Virus record (IMG/VR): IMGVR_UViG_3300011616_000006
Coordinates: 43,374 to 107,373 of that record
DNA: 64,000 nt
From: a virus
Taxonomy: Duplodnaviria; Caudoviricetes
Strand: one strand, 5' to 3'
The position numbers and the translations under genes are program-made. Shown piece by piece: positions 53,010 to 58,474 of this stretch (positions are counted from its first letter, which is position 1; each line of letters starts with the position of its first letter). The notes beneath the pieces are model-generated. The model made no database searches. It worked only from the letters and a program-made list of their open reading frames with translations, and had not been told where the DNA came from.

Positions 53010-53233
53010 CCTTTTTCCTCCTCATTCAAACTGTAGGTCTTTTTGCCAAATGTAGCCAAGACTCCCATCATCATCAAATCTAACAAGACAATCCCCAGCT
53101 ACGTTCTGTGTGACTACACCTGTTTCACCCAAATGGGCCGAAGAAGCAACTCTTTCAGAATTTTGTATTACCAAAACCCTATCGCCTACTTTATAATTAT
53201 TTTTCATTCTCACCGTCTCCTTCTATAAAAGAC

Positions 53234-54268
53234 CTATTTTAAAAGTTGCTCAATATACCGCTCCATCTCATATGTCAGCTTCACACAGTTACCATGAGAT
53301 ATGTGATTCTTCCAGGAATTATAAGACTCTTGAAACTTTTCGGTACTCAGTTTACCCTTCGTAACCAACCGAGCCATCTTTTTGAATTTCTTTTTGGCCG
53401 CTCGTTTGTTTTCGTTCTTCAACTTTTGAATCACTTTGCCATCCATTGTTACATATGTGTGAAATCCACAAAACTTAATTCCATTCTTGAATGGCATGAT
53501 TTGTGTTTTACCATTAAGTGTCAGTCCTAAAGATTCTGCAAATATCATAATGGCATTTAAGCATTCTTTTGCATAACCTCGGCCCGACACAATCATATAA
53601 AAATCGTCCATGTATCTACCATAATACTTAACACCAAGCTCCCCGGTCACAAAATGATCTAATCCAGATAAATACAGCAGTGCATAAACCTGGCTAACCT
53701 GATTCCCCAAGGGGATTCCTACGCCATCTGTGCTATCTACAAACTTCTCACAAAGCCAATACACTTTTGGGTCTGACACATAATACTCCAATATATCTTT
53801 TAGAACATTGTGATCTATAATATAGAAGAATTTGCTCACATCAGCTTTTATGATCCAGCAGTCATAACCGAACCTTTCATATGCGGCCAACATATCACTC
53901 TTCAGCCAGTTAAGACCATACAGAGTGCCCTTATTTATTTGCCCAGCAAAATTATTGGGTATGAATTCGGATGATAGTATTGGAAGGAGTACATTATCAC
54001 ACAAACTATGCTGCACAATCTTATCTTTGAATCCACCAGCCTTAATGACTCTCTCTTTTGGTTCATATATTCTAAATTCATTGTATGGAGAGACGGTATA
54101 TTGACCTGTTTCTAATAGCCGTTTTATCTGCAGCACACCATCAAGGGCCGCTGTCTGGAACTTTTGACTTCCTTTATTCTTACCATTTCCCTGTTTAGAG
54201 CGTTTATATGCCTTATACAAATTTTCAAAATCAGCAATCGCTTCAAACCCGTTACTATCTTCGATCAT
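53234..54268 (-). CDS. DGR reverse transcriptase
   Basis: 344 aa; YEPKER, KADVSKFF, GIPLGNQVSQ (DGR-type GxxxSQ), YGRYMDD, FCGF. Confidence 0.96.
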   Translation of the reverse strand: MIEDSNGFEAIADFENLYKAYKRSKQGNGKNKGSQKFQTAALDGVLQIKRLLETGQYTVSPYNEFRIYEPKERVIKAGGFKDKIVQHSLCDNVLLPILSSEFIPNNFAGQINKGTLYGLNWLKSDMLAAYERFGYDCWIIKADVSKFFYIIDHNVLKDILEYYVSDPKVYWLCEKFVDSTDGVGIPLGNQVSQVYALLYLSGLDHFVTGELGVKYYGRYMDDFYMIVSGRGYAKECLNAIMIFAESLGLTLNGKTQIMPFKNGIKFCGFHTYVTMDGKVIQKLKNENKRAAKKKFKKMARLVTKGKLSTEKFQESYNSWKNHISHGNCVKLTYEMERYIEQLLK

Positions 54269-54313
54269 AATATTTCATTCCTTTATATTTATCCTTACCT
54301 AAGCGGCAAGGAA

Positions 54314-54486
54314 AGGTTATTCATTCATTTGATGGCGGGACTCTCATTTCAGGGATTTCCCTTACTTTTTCTCGTTTTCCGCCCCAGAGCGGGCGCACAC
54401 CTTTGTCGTAGTCATAGTCGTTGTAGTTGACACTGCCGTTGCTGTTGACATACTGAACATAGTGGTTGCCATACAATGAATAACCT
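54314..54486 (-). ncRNA. Predicted DGR template RNA closed by a 12-bp terminal stem
   Basis: AGGTTATTCATT (54486-54475) is the exact complement of AATGAATAACCT (54325-54314); further hairpins lie 3' of TR. Confidence 0.7.
54390..54473 (-). repeat. DGR template repeat (TR), 84 bp
   Basis: TATGGCAACCACTATGTTCAGTATGTCAACAGCAACGGCAGTGTCAACTACAACGACTATGACTACGACAAAGGTGTGCGCCCG; AAC-rich; lies between avd and RT. Confidence 0.96.
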
Positions 54487-54494
54487 ACTAATGA

Positions 54495-54857
54495 TCAACG
54501 ATTTTTGTCTTTTGTTCTCCAACCAATTGTCATATACTTAACATCATTAATTTGCTTCTGCCAGTGTATAATTGTGTCGCATCCGATTATTTTCAGAGTC
54601 ATTGATAGCTCAGCGTAACAAGATAATTTATCACAAGCGGACACTGCTTTAGTCTGCAATTTCCCTCGTTCTTCTTTTGATGATTGAAGACTCAGGCGAT
54701 TTGCATCCAAAAGAAGTTCATATATATCCATGCAAGTTTCTTGAATACGTTTTACCAAAGTAACATACTTGTTGGGATACCTTTTTCTGTTAGATGTAAT
54801 TGTCATCGTATATTCCATAAGTTTTATCGCTTTAGTAACTACTTCAAGCTGCGCTAT
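54495..54857 (-). CDS. avd: DGR accessory variability determinant (Avd, four-helix bundle); probable AUA start
   Basis: TSNRKRYP.KY..LVKRIQ..DIYE.L..AN..W..DK.R, basic helical protein directly upstream of TR; SD AAAGGAG 9 nt before ATA at 54857. Confidence 0.88.
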   Translation of the reverse strand: MAQLEVVTKAIKLMEYTMTITSNRKRYPNKYVTLVKRIQETCMDIYELLLDANRLSLQSSKEERGKLQTKAVSACDKLSCYAELSMTLKIIGCDTIIHWQKQINDVKYMTIGWRTKDKNR

Positions 54858-54891
54858 AGTATCAAGCTCCTTTCAGTCGCTATGTCATTCC

Positions 54892-54907
54892 GGCTGCTCC
54901 CGCAGCC
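54892..54907 (-). promoter_or_regulatory. GC-rich hairpin downstream of VR (candidate DGR target-recognition cruciform)
   Basis: GGCTGC-GGGA-GCAGCC about 45 nt after the target stop codon. Confidence 0.6.
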
Positions 54908-54950
54908 CCAAGTTCCCGGCTTCGTTCTGCCGTTTCGAAGATGCGAAGAT

Positions 54951-55715
54951 TTAAGATCGTAAGATGCAAATCGGGCGCACACCCCCGCCGCAGCCATAGT
55001 CGCCGTAGCGGACACCGCCGCTGCTGCGGACACACTGAACACAGTGGTTGCCATAACCAGACGGGGTTGAATCTGGAGTAGCTAGCCACCACCATTTGTC
55101 CATGCTTGGAATATTCTCCCGACATTCTCTGTATAGATCAAGAGTTGGAATTGATAAAATATCCCCCTCTACCACACCATAATCTTTCAGCCCATCAAGC
55201 GAAAGTAGGTCTGTGGTAACCGGCACAAGTCTATCGCCGAATTCCGCCTTCAACGCCTTGCCTAGCTTGCAAATATTCAGTATTTCTCGGATATTTGATG
55301 TTGCATAATTGTTTGACTTGCCAAACTCATGATTACCAAGACTTCCATCAAGCAAATAATATGTACCTTTTTCATCTGTCTTAATTGCCGTCCATGCCCA
55401 GCCAGCCATGATTGTTAGATCCGCCGTCTGCATTTCATCCTTAACCGCCGCACGGAATTCTGCTTCGTATCTTTCTGGATCTTCATCGTACCAGTCTGGA
55501 GTGATGTCCTGATCAACAATATATTTCCAGTCATCTACGCTAGTGGCCTTGTTGCCATCTTTCGGAATTAACTCGGCTCTTATAAACACCTTTGTGGCGT
55601 TTTCGCGAGTATCTTCAATATTAAGGCTCTCCAGCAAAGAAGAGTGACTCTCATTTCCCCTAGGTGCTAACACAACTTTACTTTTCAAAATAATTCCACT
55701 CTTAAATTCGCACAT
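54951..55715 (-). CDS. DGR target protein with C-terminal CLec-like (DUF6273-like) variable domain
   Basis: NNYATSNIR..L, WWWLATP...GVRP C-terminus containing VR; no signal peptide or TM segment. Confidence 0.9.
   Translation of the reverse strand: MCEFKSGIILKSKVVLAPRGNESHSSLLESLNIEDTRENATKVFIRAELIPKDGNKATSVDDWKYIVDQDITPDWYDEDPERYEAEFRAAVKDEMQTADLTIMAGWAWTAIKTDEKGTYYLLDGSLGNHEFGKSNNYATSNIREILNICKLGKALKAEFGDRLVPVTTDLLSLDGLKDYGVVEGDILSIPTLDLYRECRENIPSMDKWWWLATPDSTPSGYGNHCVQCVRSSGGVRYGDYGCGGGVRPICILRS
54972..55055 (-). repeat. DGR variable repeat (VR), 84 bp
   Basis: Ungapped match to TR with 16 differences, all at TR adenines (14 A>G, 2 A>C). Confidence 0.96.
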
Positions 55716-55740: not shown

Positions 55741-58474
55741 TTATTTATAAATACAGGTTTTATTAATCATTACTGGCCTATAAATCTCATTTATATCTTG
55801 GGCAACGATACCATATGCTGCCAGGACAGCCATTTCCTGTTCATAGGTTTCACAAGCTTTCAGCATTGCACAGATTTCTTTATATTCCGCTTCCAGTGAG
55901 TCCTCCCGAGCTGAAACATCAATGTCCAATTTGTGTAACGCTCCATCTGACACATCAGTTGAATAATTGTGGCAGTCAATATTTAATGCTGGATAACCTT
56001 TTGCCGTGATCAATGAATCTACTCTTTCAACCGCATCCTTTACCTCTTTATAAAAGGGATCTTCTTCGAAAATCTTTTCCGTCTCCTGAGATAAACGCTC
56101 TTGAATTGCCTCTTCTTGTCTTTCTTTCCATAACTTGATGATTGCTGCTGTTCTCAAATTTTTCTCCTCCTCACAACCGTTTTTACAATAAATTCCTGGT
56201 GAACACGAATCCTGACCAAAACAAGCATTAAGTAGTCTCAAACTTCTATCAAATGAATCTTCTTTTATTATTTCGCTTATAGTCATTTCTCTCCCTTCTT
56301 TTGAAACACTGATTTCAGCACTCTGCCTCCCCTTTTAAGTTACCTATTTGAGTTCTAATGTTGGTTAGATCATACTCCATGTCTTCCGCTTTTGTTTTCA
56401 TGGAATCAATCACTTGACTCTTTGTAATTACAGCATATTTCCAAACCCAACTCGAACCATCAACATATAGGCGTGGAAAATTCCAAATGTTTTGCCCTGC
56501 ATCGCCCATAAATCTCACACTTTCGATGGAAAGCCCAGGCATTGCAATTTCGGTATTAAAGTCAAAATCATCAGCGTTGATTTCAAATAAGTACCTCCCA
56601 TCGTCTGGGATGAAATCGCACCTCACCAAATGCATTGGTATTTCGCAATCTTCTATGAACTTTCTTATATTCTCGTAGGCCTGTTCCCACGAACCAGTAG
56701 GACATAGTCCCGCACCGGGGTTTATGCATATATCCATTATTTCCTCCTTAAAATTCTGGTTTCATAAACTTTGATTTAATAAATTTTATTGTTTATTAAT
56801 CATGTAGACAAACAATATACACAATTAAGGGTTATTATATAGAAGTAAGATAAATAAAGCTTTTCATACCTTCCCCCTATATAGTGGAGCCGTCCCCCGG
56901 CTCCTTTTTTATTGACCGCTACCAATAAACTCCAGCATCATATTCTGCAGCTTATCAATATTCTGCTGAATCTTCTTTGGAATAATATCTGCAACTTTGT
57001 TGAATGCTTCATTTTGATCATCCGTTAGCAAATCTGAACGTTCTATATGTAGCTCACGGCAAGTAAGCAACCATGTTCCCGGATGATGTATATGCCTATG
57101 TACAACTACTTTACATTCGTTTAGTCTCAGCTCCCAAATGCGAGGAATCCACTCCTTATCATCCCTTGAATACGATGTTACATCTTTCCATTTAGATATA
57201 TTCATATTTCTCCTTTCCCCGGCTAACCGGTTAAAATTATTCATTTGGATAAACCGGAAACATCTCACAACTCAACATGTTGCACAACCCTTCTTTTGAC
57301 AAACTAAGAATATAATCTGCTACAATACTTTTTGCTTCATTTATTTCTGTCACTTCATTAAGATTTATATGTAACCTCATTTCAAATTTTTTCGCTTTGT
57401 CGATATATGGTATTGGGTTTATGTATCCCATGTGCTTCTCCTTCCTTGAACCACAGCCGGATAAAATTAATTTACATATTTTCGTTCCAAGCACAAATTT
57501 CACAAGTTTTCGGGCATACACCTGATTTAATTGCCCTTTGACACATTTCTCTTTTGCTTATTTTTTTCACCTCTAACACCCCGATCATGCGCAATAATTT
57601 CTTTAATAAACCGACAAAAATATTTTCTTTCCTCATACTACAGACTCCTATTCCAAATATTAATTTAATGATAGTTTCCACACATCATCTGATGATCCAC
57701 TTCACATCCATCTATGATGCAAATATGTTTTTCTGAAATTGTCTTGCCGTTCTCATCTGTAATTTCTTTCAATGCACAGCTTTGACAGTTTAAACAACTC
57801 ATTCCAGTGTCATATACAAACCCCATATTATTTCCTCCTATATGAATTGATGATTTCTTCTATGTACTTAGTTTGACAGGCTCCTGATTGCGATACATGT
57901 ACTTTCTTGTTGACAAACCATCCACACATTTCTGTATATTACCAGCTGCGATTTTACCAAAATCACTTCGCAATATCGTGTCTACAATGAGTAATTCATC
58001 TTTGACTATTCTCCGCTGCTCTAGCAAATCCTTCAGCTCTCGAAACATTTTGTAACCATTACAGGCGTTTACCTTGGCTGCGAATTCAATTTCGTGCTCC
58101 ATATCAACTTTTCGCTTATCCGGGGTGGATAGTTGACTTGCAAGTTCTGTTTTTCTCTGTAAAGCATCATCTGCCAACCCATTAAGACCCTTTATCCTCT
58201 CAACCCATGTTTGGACGGATACATGTGTTTCTTTTACATCACATATAAGTTTCGGTTCACACGCTTTCTCTAATGTCACCGATGGTCTTTCCGAAATCTC
58301 AGGGATTGCTTCTGTCTTAAAATTCATCCGCTTAAGCGGTTTGGGTAAAGATGCAATAACATTCTTCGCCTTAGAATATTCAAACCTCTGGGCATGATTT
58401 TTTACGCAAGTTTCCGCTTTACCATTTTCGTTCAGGCGGATATATACCTTATTGTTTCGAATGAAATAATCCAA
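55741..58474 (-). other. Hypothetical ORFs 55741-56286, 56315-56737, 56909-57205, small ORFs, and 57860-58474 (coiled-coil)
   Basis: SD-led minus-strand ORFs; the 57860 ORF starts at TTG 58474, not inside the tRNA. Confidence 0.6.

What the first reader, a model, noticed from the sequence alone, without database searches (positions are those of the whole stretch)
53234..55715. Complete DGR diversifying an apparently cytoplasmic early phage protein, not a tail fibre
Seen: gene order target(VR)-hairpin-avd-TR-RT; 84-bp ungapped TR/VR pair with 16 of 26 TR adenines changed and no non-A differences; intact RT (YMDD, GNQVSQ). The 254-aa target has no signal peptide or structural context, lies among early accessory genes, and has an unrecognised N-terminal domain (MCEFKSGIILK...ESHSSLL) fused to a CLec-like variable domain. 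Known: the best-studied phage DGRs (BPP-1 Mtd) vary receptor-binding proteins. Inference: a hypervariable intracellular binder, for example an adaptable anti-defence or host-takeover protein, or an anti-superinfection sensor.
Basis: partly seen in the sequence, partly recalled or inferred. Interest (0 to 1): 0.85.

Follow-up and report, generated by a model that had tools for sequence, protein, structure and literature searches.

The report
Phage retroelement hypermutating early lectin-like proteins
A large prophage of a gut bacterium carries a complete mutagenic retroelement (DGR) that rewrites the binding face of a small soluble lectin-fold protein, and probably of a second one, encoded among its early genes rather than its tail genes; this layout is real and active in relatives and has been reported in other gut phages, but what the proteins bind is unknown.

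Summary
On the minus strand lie the target (54951-55715), a hairpin, Avd, TR and an intact RT. The 84-nt TR/VR pair differs at 16 of 26 TR adenines and nowhere else (chance about 8e-11).

In 23 IMG/VR relatives with an identical TR there are 20 different VRs. They vary at 23 of 24 A positions and 4 of 59 others, so the family's DGR is active.

The target is a confidently modelled two-domain protein. Its 98-residue N-terminal module has no Pfam family and no clear PDB fold match. Its C-terminal DUF6273-type C-lectin domain carries the VR.

Outside the window, contig C38 is collinear with the same about 100-kb SPbeta-like prophage. It holds a second DUF6273 paralogue beside an anti-repressor gene, with a VR-like end and the same downstream hairpin element. 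In relatives the orthologue is a clean second VR about 17 kb from the TR.

Both targets lie in the early arm, divergent from the TerL/portal/tape-measure module. So 'not a tail-module gene' is supported; 'cytoplasmic anti-defence binder' remains unproven.

Small early-region DUF6273 DGR targets and non-structural phage DGR targets are already published. This scan has noted the same layout on other genomes several times. Verdict: new member of a known kind.

The parts
54951..55715 (-). DGR target gene 1 (254 aa): N-terminal module plus DUF6273-type C-lectin domain
   Evidence: ORF. phrog_9958 E 5e-27 over residues 103-254; PF19789 20 bits, below the 23.5 cut-off. AF2 model with mean pLDDT 96. 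1175 homologues, with full-length ones at 60-70% identity.
55422..55715 (-). N-terminal module (residues 1-98): small alpha/beta domain ending in a long helix, of unknown function
   Evidence: No Pfam or PHROG family. Modelled alone at pLDDT 94. Best PDB match Z 4.9; in BFVD only an uncharacterised homologue. About 55 of the best 150 cluster representatives match only this part and carry other C-termini.
54954..55421 (-). C-lectin-fold domain (residues 99-254) carrying the VR
   Evidence: VIA-align matches: 9qa6_A N-terminal DUF6273 domain, Z 14.7, rmsd 2.4, 151 aligned; Lcl C-terminal domain 8q4e, Z 9.8; TvpA 2y3c, Z 8.4; 4eps, Z 7.7.
54972..55055 (-). Variable repeat VR1 (84 nt, codons 221-248); its last 12 nt, GGTGTGCGCCCG, are a G+C-rich IMH-like boundary
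   Evidence: 16 of 26 A positions changed, 0 of 58 others. Homology to the TR ends right after CCCG.
54892..54907 (-). Hairpin GGCTGC-GGGA-GCAGCC, 64 nt downstream of VR1: candidate target-recognition element
   Evidence: Fold (z -2.8 for the 61-nt piece). The same element, GAACGAAGCC...GGCTGC-loop-GCAGC, follows the second VR on contig C38. Hairpins with 4- or 5-nt loops follow VR1 and VR2 of relative G001 at the same place.
54495..54818 (-). Avd accessory protein gene (107 aa)
   Evidence: phrog_3206 'Avd protein of DGR', E 2e-14. 59-64% identical in relatives at the same position.
54390..54473 (-). Template repeat TR (84 nt, 26 adenines)
   Evidence: It lies between avd and the RT gene. 25 of 26 adenines are at codon positions 1-2 in the VR frame.
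53234..54268 (-). DGR reverse transcriptase gene (344 aa, intact)
   Evidence: RVT_1 E 1.7e-10 and phrog_1423 E 7e-104. YMDD at 219 and GNQVSQ at 188. 67-71% identical in relatives.

Best explanation
This is a complete BPP-1-type diversity-generating retroelement in the early arm of a large (about 100 kb or more), low-G+C, SPbeta-like prophage.

How it works (inferred from the established DGR mechanism). The TR is transcribed. The RT, with Avd, copies it into cDNA while misreading adenines. [quoted passage not shown] This re-randomises about a dozen residues on the ligand-binding face of a C-lectin-fold (DUF6273-type) domain.

Targets. The cassette-adjacent target is a 254-aa soluble, acidic protein: a constant 98-residue N-terminal module of unknown fold family, joined by a helix to the variable lectin domain. 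A second paralogue, with a different N-terminus and next to an anti-repressor gene on contig C38 of the same prophage, is very probably a second, remote target. In relatives it clearly is one.

Inference. Both genes belong to the early, non-structural transcription arm. My reading is therefore that they are not tail or baseplate parts but free variable binders, made with the early genes and acting off the virion. I put about 0.55 on an off-virion role, split roughly 0.35 inside the infected or lysogenic cell and 0.2 released outside it. Their ligand is unknown.

Shown: the anatomy, A-specific variation in relatives, the lectin fold, and the genomic position. Inferred: the homing mechanism in this copy, the timing of expression, and the off-virion role.
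For: - DGR anatomy and the A-only TR/VR differences.
- Family activity: 23 IMG/VR loci share an identical 83-nt TR but have 20 distinct VRs. These vary at 23 of 24 A positions against 4 of 59 others, while the rest of the gene is 97.7% identical on average.
- Second target in this genome: C38:58219-58302 differs from this TR at 13 of 26 A positions against 4 of 58 others (p 1.8e-5). It shares the IMH-like end and the downstream hairpin element with VR1.
- Second target in relatives: in G001-G004 the orthologue, about 17 kb upstream of the TR, has 0-1 non-A and 11-21 A mismatches.
- One prophage with a divergent late module: G001 (CheckV 99%) is collinear with C38 and then C22. TerL, portal and tape-measure genes are on the opposite strand of C38. 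The spacing matches G002, and Pol III alpha is shared at 65% identity.
- Early-region placement recurs in unrelated phages: the N-module protein of Dulem virus 35 lies just after cro-like genes; the FP_Brigit DUF6273 protein lies between HTH genes and exonuclease/RecT; nd4_tgt2; L007.
- Fold. No membrane segment.
- Self-association model: score 0.56 against a best control of 0.20. That mark was reached by 20 of 30 proteins solved as pairs and 1 of 23 solved as single chains. The runs agree in at least 55% of contacts and partner pLDDT is at least 85. The job used my own alignment and three copies, unlike the calibration. The confident interface is a symmetric one between two copies through the lectin domain, not a three-fold one.
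- Literature: in Shimadzu, VR2 in a small protein of unknown function is diversified but weakly selected compared with the tail VR1 (bioRxiv 10.1101/575076). A Quimbyvirus second target is read as non-structural (PMC8008677).
Against: - No experiment places this protein on or off the virion. Virion proteins also lack signal peptides.
- Published authors read the small DUF6273 targets as Mtd-like receptor-binding proteins (PMC10743442; bioRxiv 10.1101/2024.10.15.618418).
- A constant N-terminal module joined to swappable binding-type C-termini (lectin, or 9-residue-repeat solenoid-like) is also the classic design of receptor-binding proteins.
- DGR cassettes with presumed capsid-decoration targets (Hoc-like, tentaclins) can also lie outside the structural block.
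- The closest solved DUF6273 domain belongs to a secreted, wall-anchored protein.
- No neighbour matched a defence or anti-defence model.
- Activity of this very copy is unproven. VR2 here carries 4 non-A mismatches, so that site may no longer be used.
Confidence: 0.55

Rival explanations
1. The target is a virion-associated accessory receptor-binding or decoration protein, functionally Mtd-like. It is merely encoded away from the structural module. The N-terminal module docks it on the tail or head, and the DGR varies host or mucus recognition.
For: - This is the published reading of small DUF6273 targets (PMC10743442; bioRxiv 10.1101/2024.10.15.618418).
- The VR-bearing lectin part is homologous to that of Hoc-like/tentaclin targets: phrog_10993 hits for the C38 paralogue and P0121.
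- A constant N-terminal module with interchangeable C-terminal binding domains resembles anchor-plus-tip designs of receptor-binding proteins.
- DGRs in phages classically vary adsorption proteins (established knowledge, BPP-1 Mtd).
Against: - Both targets lie in the early arm, on the strand opposite to TerL, portal and tape measure and 28 kb or more from them.
- The same family sits right after lysogeny-switch genes in unrelated small phages.
- The family occurs in phages of different tail types with different or no N-terminal extensions, so no common anchor is evident.
- The confident predicted self-contact is two-fold, not the three-fold symmetry of fibres.
- In Shimadzu the remote small target showed no directional selection during infection blooms.
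Confidence: 0.35
2. The target is a lysogen-expressed 'moron'. The prophage makes the lectin-like protein for its host, and it is released (through lysis of a subpopulation or in vesicles) to bind gut glycans, mucus or other microbes. The DGR adapts this binding.
For: - A 2026 preprint reports a DGR-targeted DUF6273 tentaclin in the secretome or vesicles of lysogens without phage particles (10.64898/2026.05.08.723808).
- DUF6273 domains of bacteria are found in secreted surface proteins, for example the T. ramosa IgA peptidase.
- The genes lie near lysogeny-type genes: MazF-like toxin, integrase-like genes, anti-repressor.
Against: - There is no signal peptide, lipobox or membrane anchor.
- The gene sits inside a long co-directional early gene string without an evident promoter or terminator of its own.
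- The preprint concerns the large Ig-domain tentaclins, not small targets.
Confidence: 0.1
3. In this particular prophage the DGR is a frozen relic: the repeats record past homing, and the element no longer diversifies anything.
For: - About 10 related loci keep the full-length target but have no avd or RT downstream, so the target functions without ongoing diversification.
- VR2 on C38 has 4 non-A mismatches to the TR.
- No read-level data could be obtained for this copy.
Against: - RT, Avd, TR, the IMH-like end and the hairpin are all intact.
- VR1 has zero non-A differences over 84 nt, which argues for recent homing.
- Close relatives with the same architecture show abundant A-specific VR diversity.
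Confidence: 0.2

Closest known systems
Small DUF6273 'target 2' proteins of gut Firmicutes phage DGRs: nd4_tgt2 and nd12_tgt2 (Baykov et al. 2023, PMC10743442), the small targets of Faecalibacterium phages Lelie and CP11 (PMC11792537), and the second remote target of FP_Toutatis (bioRxiv 10.1101/2024.10.15.618418)
   Same: - Proteins of 200-300 aa consisting mainly of one DUF6273 C-lectin domain with the VR at the C-terminus.
- Encoded away from tail genes, and often a second, remote target of one TR.
- nd4_tgt2 is a direct sequence hit: 36% identity over residues 104-221.
   Different: - Here the cassette-adjacent target is itself the small early-arm protein, and no Ig-domain tentaclin or tail target was found for this TR in the genome.
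- It carries a distinct, widely shuffled 98-residue N-terminal module not described in those papers.
- The phage is a large SPbeta-like prophage rather than a 30-60 kb phage.
Bordetella phage BPP-1 DGR (Brt, Avd, TR, VR in mtd, IMH and hairpin)
   Same: - RT plus Avd plus TR.
- A-specific TR-to-VR differences.
- VR at the 3' end of a C-lectin-fold domain.
- G+C-rich VR end followed by a short hairpin with a 4-nt loop.
   Different: - Mtd is a trimeric tail-fibre tip protein with beta-prism and beta-sandwich domains, encoded beside the tail genes.
- This target has neither domain, sits in the early arm, and its hairpin lies about 64 nt from the VR rather than immediately after it.
Quimbyvirus ('Quimbyviridae') DGR with a second target nested among defence-related genes (Benler et al. 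2021, PMC8008677)
   Same: A phage DGR target distal to the structural module and read as non-structural. The role in phage-host conflict is proposed there but untested.
   Different: - Bacteroidetes phages with a frameshifted RT.
- One target there is still next to tail fibre genes; here both are in the early arm.
- No recognised defence or counter-defence neighbours here.
Roseburia phage Shimadzu VR2 in orf43 (Cornuault et al., bioRxiv 10.1101/575076)
   Same: A remote second VR in a small protein of unknown function. It is experimentally shown to be diversified, and the phage infects Lachnospiraceae.
   Different: Shimadzu's primary target is a tail gene next to the RT. I did not test sequence relatedness of orf43 to this protein.

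Membership tests
Diversity-generating retroelement (BPP-1 type) | Reverse transcriptase of the DGR clade with intact catalytic YxDD and the [I/L]GxxxSQ motif | tested here: met
   RVT_1 E 1.7e-10 and phrog_1423 E 7e-104. YMDD at 219 and LGNQVSQ at 187-193.
Diversity-generating retroelement (BPP-1 type) | TR/VR pair that differs only at TR adenines, with the VR at the 3' end of a protein-coding gene | tested here: met
   84 nt, with 16 of 26 A positions changed and 0 of 58 others; chance 8e-11.
Diversity-generating retroelement (BPP-1 type) | Accessory variability determinant (Avd) | tested here: met
   phrog_3206, E 2e-14.
Diversity-generating retroelement (BPP-1 type) | Target-site cis elements: G+C-rich IMH at the VR 3' end and a downstream hairpin | tested here: met
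   The GGTGTGCGCCCG boundary and a 6-bp stem with a 4-nt loop at 54892-54907. The same element follows VR2 on C38, and hairpins follow both VRs in G001. Function of these elements was not assayed.
Diversity-generating retroelement (BPP-1 type) | Ongoing A-specific diversification of the VR | tested here: inconclusive
   Shown for relatives: 23 loci with one TR and 20 VRs.
DUF6273 (PF19789) C-lectin-like domain / phrog_9958 | Sequence match to the family model | tested here: inconclusive
   PF19789 scores 20 bits, below the 23.5 cut-off. However, phrog_9958 gives E 5e-27, and many 60-70% identical homologues carry a precomputed PF19789 hit.
DUF6273 (PF19789) C-lectin-like domain / phrog_9958 | C-type-lectin-like fold with the VR on a surface beta-hairpin | tested here: met
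   AF2 pLDDT 96. Z 14.7 to the DUF6273 N-terminal domain of 9qa6, with further matches to Lcl, TvpA and 4eps. VR residues 221-248 fall on strands 225-229, 235-239 and 243-245.
Mtd-like tail receptor-binding protein | N-terminal beta-prism and beta-sandwich domains and trimeric assembly | tested here: inconclusive
   The N-terminal module is a small alpha/beta domain with no clear PDB match (best Z 4.9). The self-association model gives a two-fold lectin-domain contact. Neither result excludes a trimer.
Mtd-like tail receptor-binding protein | Gene located in or beside the tail module | tested here: not met
   The gene is in the early arm, on the strand opposite to TerL, portal and tape measure and tens of kb away.
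Mtd-like tail receptor-binding protein | Presence in the virion and a role in adsorption | not testable with these tools
   Needs virion proteomics and adsorption assays.
Tentaclin / Hoc-like DGR targets | Ig-like (Fn3/Big) domains following the lectin domain | tested here: not met
   The 254-aa model holds only the N-terminal module and the lectin domain. There are no Ig-domain Pfam hits.

The most novel reading that the evidence does not exclude
Both DGR targets of this SPbeta-like prophage are intracellular, early-expressed variable binders. On this reading a phage-encoded, antibody-like system re-aims a lectin-fold binding site at variable host or rival-phage proteins (defence proteins, repressors or superinfecting-phage components). 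The constant 98-residue N-terminal module would serve as the effector or adaptor end. That module is also fused to other repeat-type binding domains in many phages.
Probability: 0.3. Interest if true: 0.85.

Novelty: new member of a known kind. Interest (0 to 1): 0.42.

Why it matters
DGRs are the only known natural systems of targeted protein hypermutation in prokaryotes. In phages they are understood almost entirely through tail-fibre tropism switching.

A growing set of small lectin-fold targets sits among early genes, and nobody knows what they bind. This locus is a clean case. The only two targets of the TR found in this genome assembly both lie in the early arm of a large prophage. The family runs to more than a thousand proteins, and relatives show natural A-specific variation.

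If the host strain or a relative can be grown and induced, virion proteomics and pull-downs with VR variants could settle whether phages hypermutate proteins that act off the virion. The shuffled N-terminal module is a further handle, because its partner would point to the pathway involved.

Tried and rejected
- N-terminal module function:
  - Pfam, PHROG and PADLOC gave nothing.
  - PDB-wide structural search gave a best Z of 4.9 to RNase-PH-type subdomains, at noise level.
  - BFVD gave only an uncharacterised homologue.
  - ESM Atlas gave only hypothetical viral clusters.
  - The alternative C-termini fused to this module had no Pfam or PHROG family.
  - Their contigs were too short to give context.
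- The Pfam DUF6273 model was too weak to find paralogues in relatives; a protein query worked.
- FP_Brigit's early-region DUF6273 protein was tested as a hidden second target of Brigit's DGR. No TR match was found near its RT, so family members also exist without DGR targeting.
- An exact-register search of the whole genome for further VRs, allowing up to 4 non-A substitutions, found only TR and VR1. The C38 site surfaced only through protein similarity.
- Promoter and terminator scans around the cassette were no better than shuffles.
- I first considered the whole 107-kb contig to be one phage. G+C content, a second replication set and the host genes between them show two elements instead: the low-G+C DGR prophage (window about 20-64 kb) and a separate siphovirus-type prophage further on.
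- The homotrimer idea (Mtd-like) was put to complex prediction. Self-association passed, but the confident contacts are between two copies only.
Full report
**1. Observation**

The ORF list and repeat search show, all on the minus strand:
- a 254-aa ORF (54951-55715);
- a 107-aa ORF (54495-54818);
- a 344-aa ORF (53234-54268);
- a direct repeat pair offset by 582 nt.

Read on the coding strand, the TR (54390-54473) and VR (54972-55055) are 84 nt long and ungapped. The TR has 26 adenines. Sixteen are changed in the VR (14 to G, 2 to C), and none of the 58 other positions differs. The chance that 16 mismatches all fall on adenines is 8e-11. Twenty-five of the 26 adenines occupy codon positions 1 or 2 of the VR frame, mostly in AAC, TAY and GAC codons.

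The 107-aa protein matches the PHROG family 'Avd protein of DGR' (E 2e-14). The 344-aa protein matches RVT_1 and a PHROG reverse-transcriptase family (E 7e-104), with YMDD and LGNQVSQ intact. Homology between VR and TR stops right after a G+C-rich GGTGTGCGCCCG. A hairpin with a 6-bp stem and a 4-nt loop lies 64 nt downstream of the VR.

**2. Is the system active?**

Relatives give strong indirect evidence.

A scan of IMG/VR found 36 loci encoding the same 254-aa protein at 47-53% identity. Most have the conserved order MazF-like gene, a further shared gene, target, avd, TR, RT. Twenty-three of these loci share an identical 83-nt TR, yet they carry 20 different VRs. Twenty-three of 24 A positions vary among them, against 4 of 59 other positions. 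The rest of the gene is 97.7% identical on average. Substitutions favour G, as in the window.

About ten loci keep a full-length target but have no avd or RT downstream.

**3. The target protein**

Sequence searches show a large family. There are 1175 hits in the 90%-clustered collection, with full-length members at 60-70% identity, and 1272 representatives at 50% clustering. The protein is modular:
- Residues 103-254 match phrog_9958. They match Pfam DUF6273 only weakly (20 bits against a cut-off of 23.5).
- Residues 1-98 match no family.
- About 55 of the best 150 representatives match only the N-terminal part and continue into other C-termini. Many others are the lectin part alone.
- Several of the alternative C-termini are made of degenerate 9-residue repeats that look solenoid-like (my reading). 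They have no Pfam or PHROG family.

AlphaFold2 with a 52-row alignment gave a model with mean pLDDT 96 and pTM 0.88. A PDB-wide structural search matched residues 99-254 to the following:
- the DUF6273 N-terminal domain of the Thomasclavelia ramosa IgA peptidase (9qa6_A: Z 14.7, rmsd 2.4, 151 aligned, 23% identity);
- the Legionella Lcl C-terminal domain (Z 9.8);
- the DGR target TvpA (Z 8.4);
- a Bacteroides fimbrial tip protein, 4eps (Z 7.7);
- many animal C-type lectins.

The N-terminal module modelled alone (pLDDT 94) had no clear PDB match (best Z 4.9). In BFVD it matched only an uncharacterised homologue. The protein has no hydrophobic segment and is acidic.

A self-association job with three copies passed. 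The score was 0.56 against a best control of 0.20. That mark was reached by 20 of 30 proteins solved as pairs and 1 of 23 solved as single chains. The runs agree in at least 55% of contacts, and partner pLDDT is at least 85. The job used my own alignment and three copies, unlike the calibration. The confident contacts form a symmetric interface between two copies through the lectin domain, partly on VR residues. This is a model, not a measurement, and it gives no sign of a fibre-like trimer.

**4. Genomic setting**

The window is the first 63,950 bases of a 107-kb contig (C22) of a 6.55-Mb, 96-contig genome. Two elements share the contig.

- *Window about 20-64 kb.* G+C is 35-39%, against 45% for the genome. 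This stretch carries a PemK/MazF-like toxin gene, integrase-like genes, the DGR, a Sak4-like/clamp-loader-like protein, DnaB, primase, RecJ, a Pol III alpha-type polymerase, an ERCC4 nuclease, an NAD ligase, NrdD and a tyrosine integrase.
- *Beyond host genes.* A separate siphovirus-type prophage of host-like G+C follows. It has its own polymerase, primase, TerL, portal, capsid, tape measure, lysin and serine recombinases.

The contig starts in a multi-copy repeat, so the DGR element is cut there.

Contig C38 (62 kb, G+C 37%) carries TerL, portal, tape-measure and other large genes on one strand. On the other strand it carries small genes, including an anti-repressor. A 166-kb IMG/VR provirus rated 99% complete by CheckV (G001) is collinear first with C38 and then with the start of C22. 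It shares the Pol III alpha at 65% identity. In G002 the spacing and strand relation between TerL and the two lectin genes matches C38.

I therefore take C38 plus C22:1-44.5 kb to be one prophage of about 100 kb or more, of SPbeta-like organisation. The SPbeta-like label is my inference, from the Pol III alpha/DnaB/primase set, a YopX-domain gene in relative L007 and the divergent late module. The DGR lies in its early arm.

**5. A second target**

C38 encodes a phrog_9958 paralogue (L047:5616-6350, next to the anti-repressor gene). Its 3' end aligns in register with this window's TR, differing at 13 of 26 A positions and 4 of 58 others (p 1.8e-5). It has the same GGTGTGCGCCCG-ATTT end as VR1. 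Downstream at the same distance it has the same element, GAACGAAGCC...GGCTGC-loop-GCAGC.

In relatives G001-G004 the orthologue lies about 17 kb upstream of the TR. It is a clean second VR, with 0-1 non-A and 11-21 A mismatches, and it also has a downstream hairpin.

So the lineage's DGR has two targets, both small lectin-fold proteins of the early arm. In this genome the four non-A mismatches suggest that VR2 has not been rewritten recently. No further VR for this TR was found in the genome.

**6. What it does**

The retroelement mechanism can be taken from established DGR biology. The open question is the role of the targets.

Points against a tail or baseplate role:
- their position in the early arm, opposite to and far from the structural genes;
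- the recurrence of both modules in early regions of unrelated phages: the Dulem virus 35 N-module protein lies just after cro-like genes, and the FP_Brigit DUF6273 protein lies between HTH regulators and exonuclease/RecT and is not a DGR target there;
- the lack of a common anchor domain across phages of different morphotypes;
- in Roseburia phage Shimadzu, the remote small target is diversified but not directionally selected during infection blooms, unlike the tail target.

Points for a virion role:
- the published interpretation;
- the anchor-plus-tip look of the modular architecture;
- homology of the VR-bearing part with Hoc-like/tentaclin targets.

A third possibility is release from lysogens for the host's benefit. 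It is suggested by a 2026 preprint on tentaclins in the secretome.

I put about 0.55 on an off-virion role (0.35 intracellular, 0.2 released) and 0.35 on a virion role. Nothing here identifies a ligand, and no neighbour matched a defence model.

**7. Novelty**

- DUF6273 is a published DGR target domain.
- Small 'target 2' proteins away from tail genes are described for nd4 and nd12, Lelie and CP11, Toutatis and Shimadzu.
- A non-structural second target was proposed for Quimbyvirus in 2021.
- Earlier notes of this scan report the same early-arm, two-target layout on other genomes at least eight times, including an SPbeta-like phage. I treated these notes as leads only.

What is particular here:
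- both targets of the TR are early-arm proteins, and no structural target was found;
- the setting is a large SPbeta-like prophage;
- the 98-residue N-terminal module is widely shuffled and not described in the papers I read;
- both target sites share a conserved downstream hairpin element.

I class it as a new member of a known kind, of moderate interest.

Noticed in passing
L047:6219-6303 (G000 contig C38:58219-58303); gene L047:5616-6350 (+): Second DUF6273/phrog_9958 paralogue next to an anti-repressor gene on another contig of the same prophage. Its 3' end matches this window's TR with 13 of 26 A and 4 of 58 non-A mismatches, and it shares the downstream hairpin element. This is a probable remote VR2, and it is clean in relatives G001-G004.
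   Followed up: yes
G000 contig C2:169168-172325 (outside the window): A second, unrelated DGR in the same genome. The RT is at 169168-170316 (-), 31-33% identical to the RTs of relatives of the window's DGR. The TR is at 170452-170562 and the VR at 171207-171317, at the 3' end of a 377-aa ORF. All 11 mismatches are at TR adenines.
   Followed up: partly
window 9054-62497, e.g. 53226-53241 and 56302-56317: The motif TRAAA-N6-TTTYA occurs 14 times, against 1.5 expected from shuffles, mostly at gene junctions of the low-G+C prophage. One copy overlaps the RT stop and another lies two genes upstream of the target, so the DGR plus one ORF is bracketed by two copies. Other first-reader notes describe this motif.
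   Followed up: partly
window 1-21000 and L004-L006 (C22:63951-107275): The contig holds a second, separate prophage of host-like G+C. It carries an SNF2 helicase, PolA-type polymerase, primase, TerL, portal, capsid, tape measure, amidase and three serine recombinases. It is separated from the DGR prophage by host-like genes, and defence-type genes (Abi-alpha-like) lie beyond it.
   Followed up: partly
L045:14538-17213 (-) on contig C38: An 891-aa protein of phrog_8308 with a faint RNA-polymerase-type hit lies beside the structural module. It may be a YonO-like single-subunit RNA polymerase, which would fit an SPbeta-like late-transcription scheme.
   Followed up: no
IMG/VR loci L009, L017, L028, L035, L036, L038-L042: Relatives keep an intact 254-aa target gene but have no avd or RT within the flank downstream. 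G005 also lacks the second paralogue. This points to repeated gain or loss of the DGR cassette around a retained target.
   Followed up: partly
proteins P0163, P0176, P0181, P0230, P0234: The 98-residue N-terminal module is fused in other phages to 200-290-residue C-termini built of degenerate 9-residue repeats (pattern like xxSxVxxMx). These look like a beta-solenoid and have no Pfam or PHROG family.
   Followed up: partly
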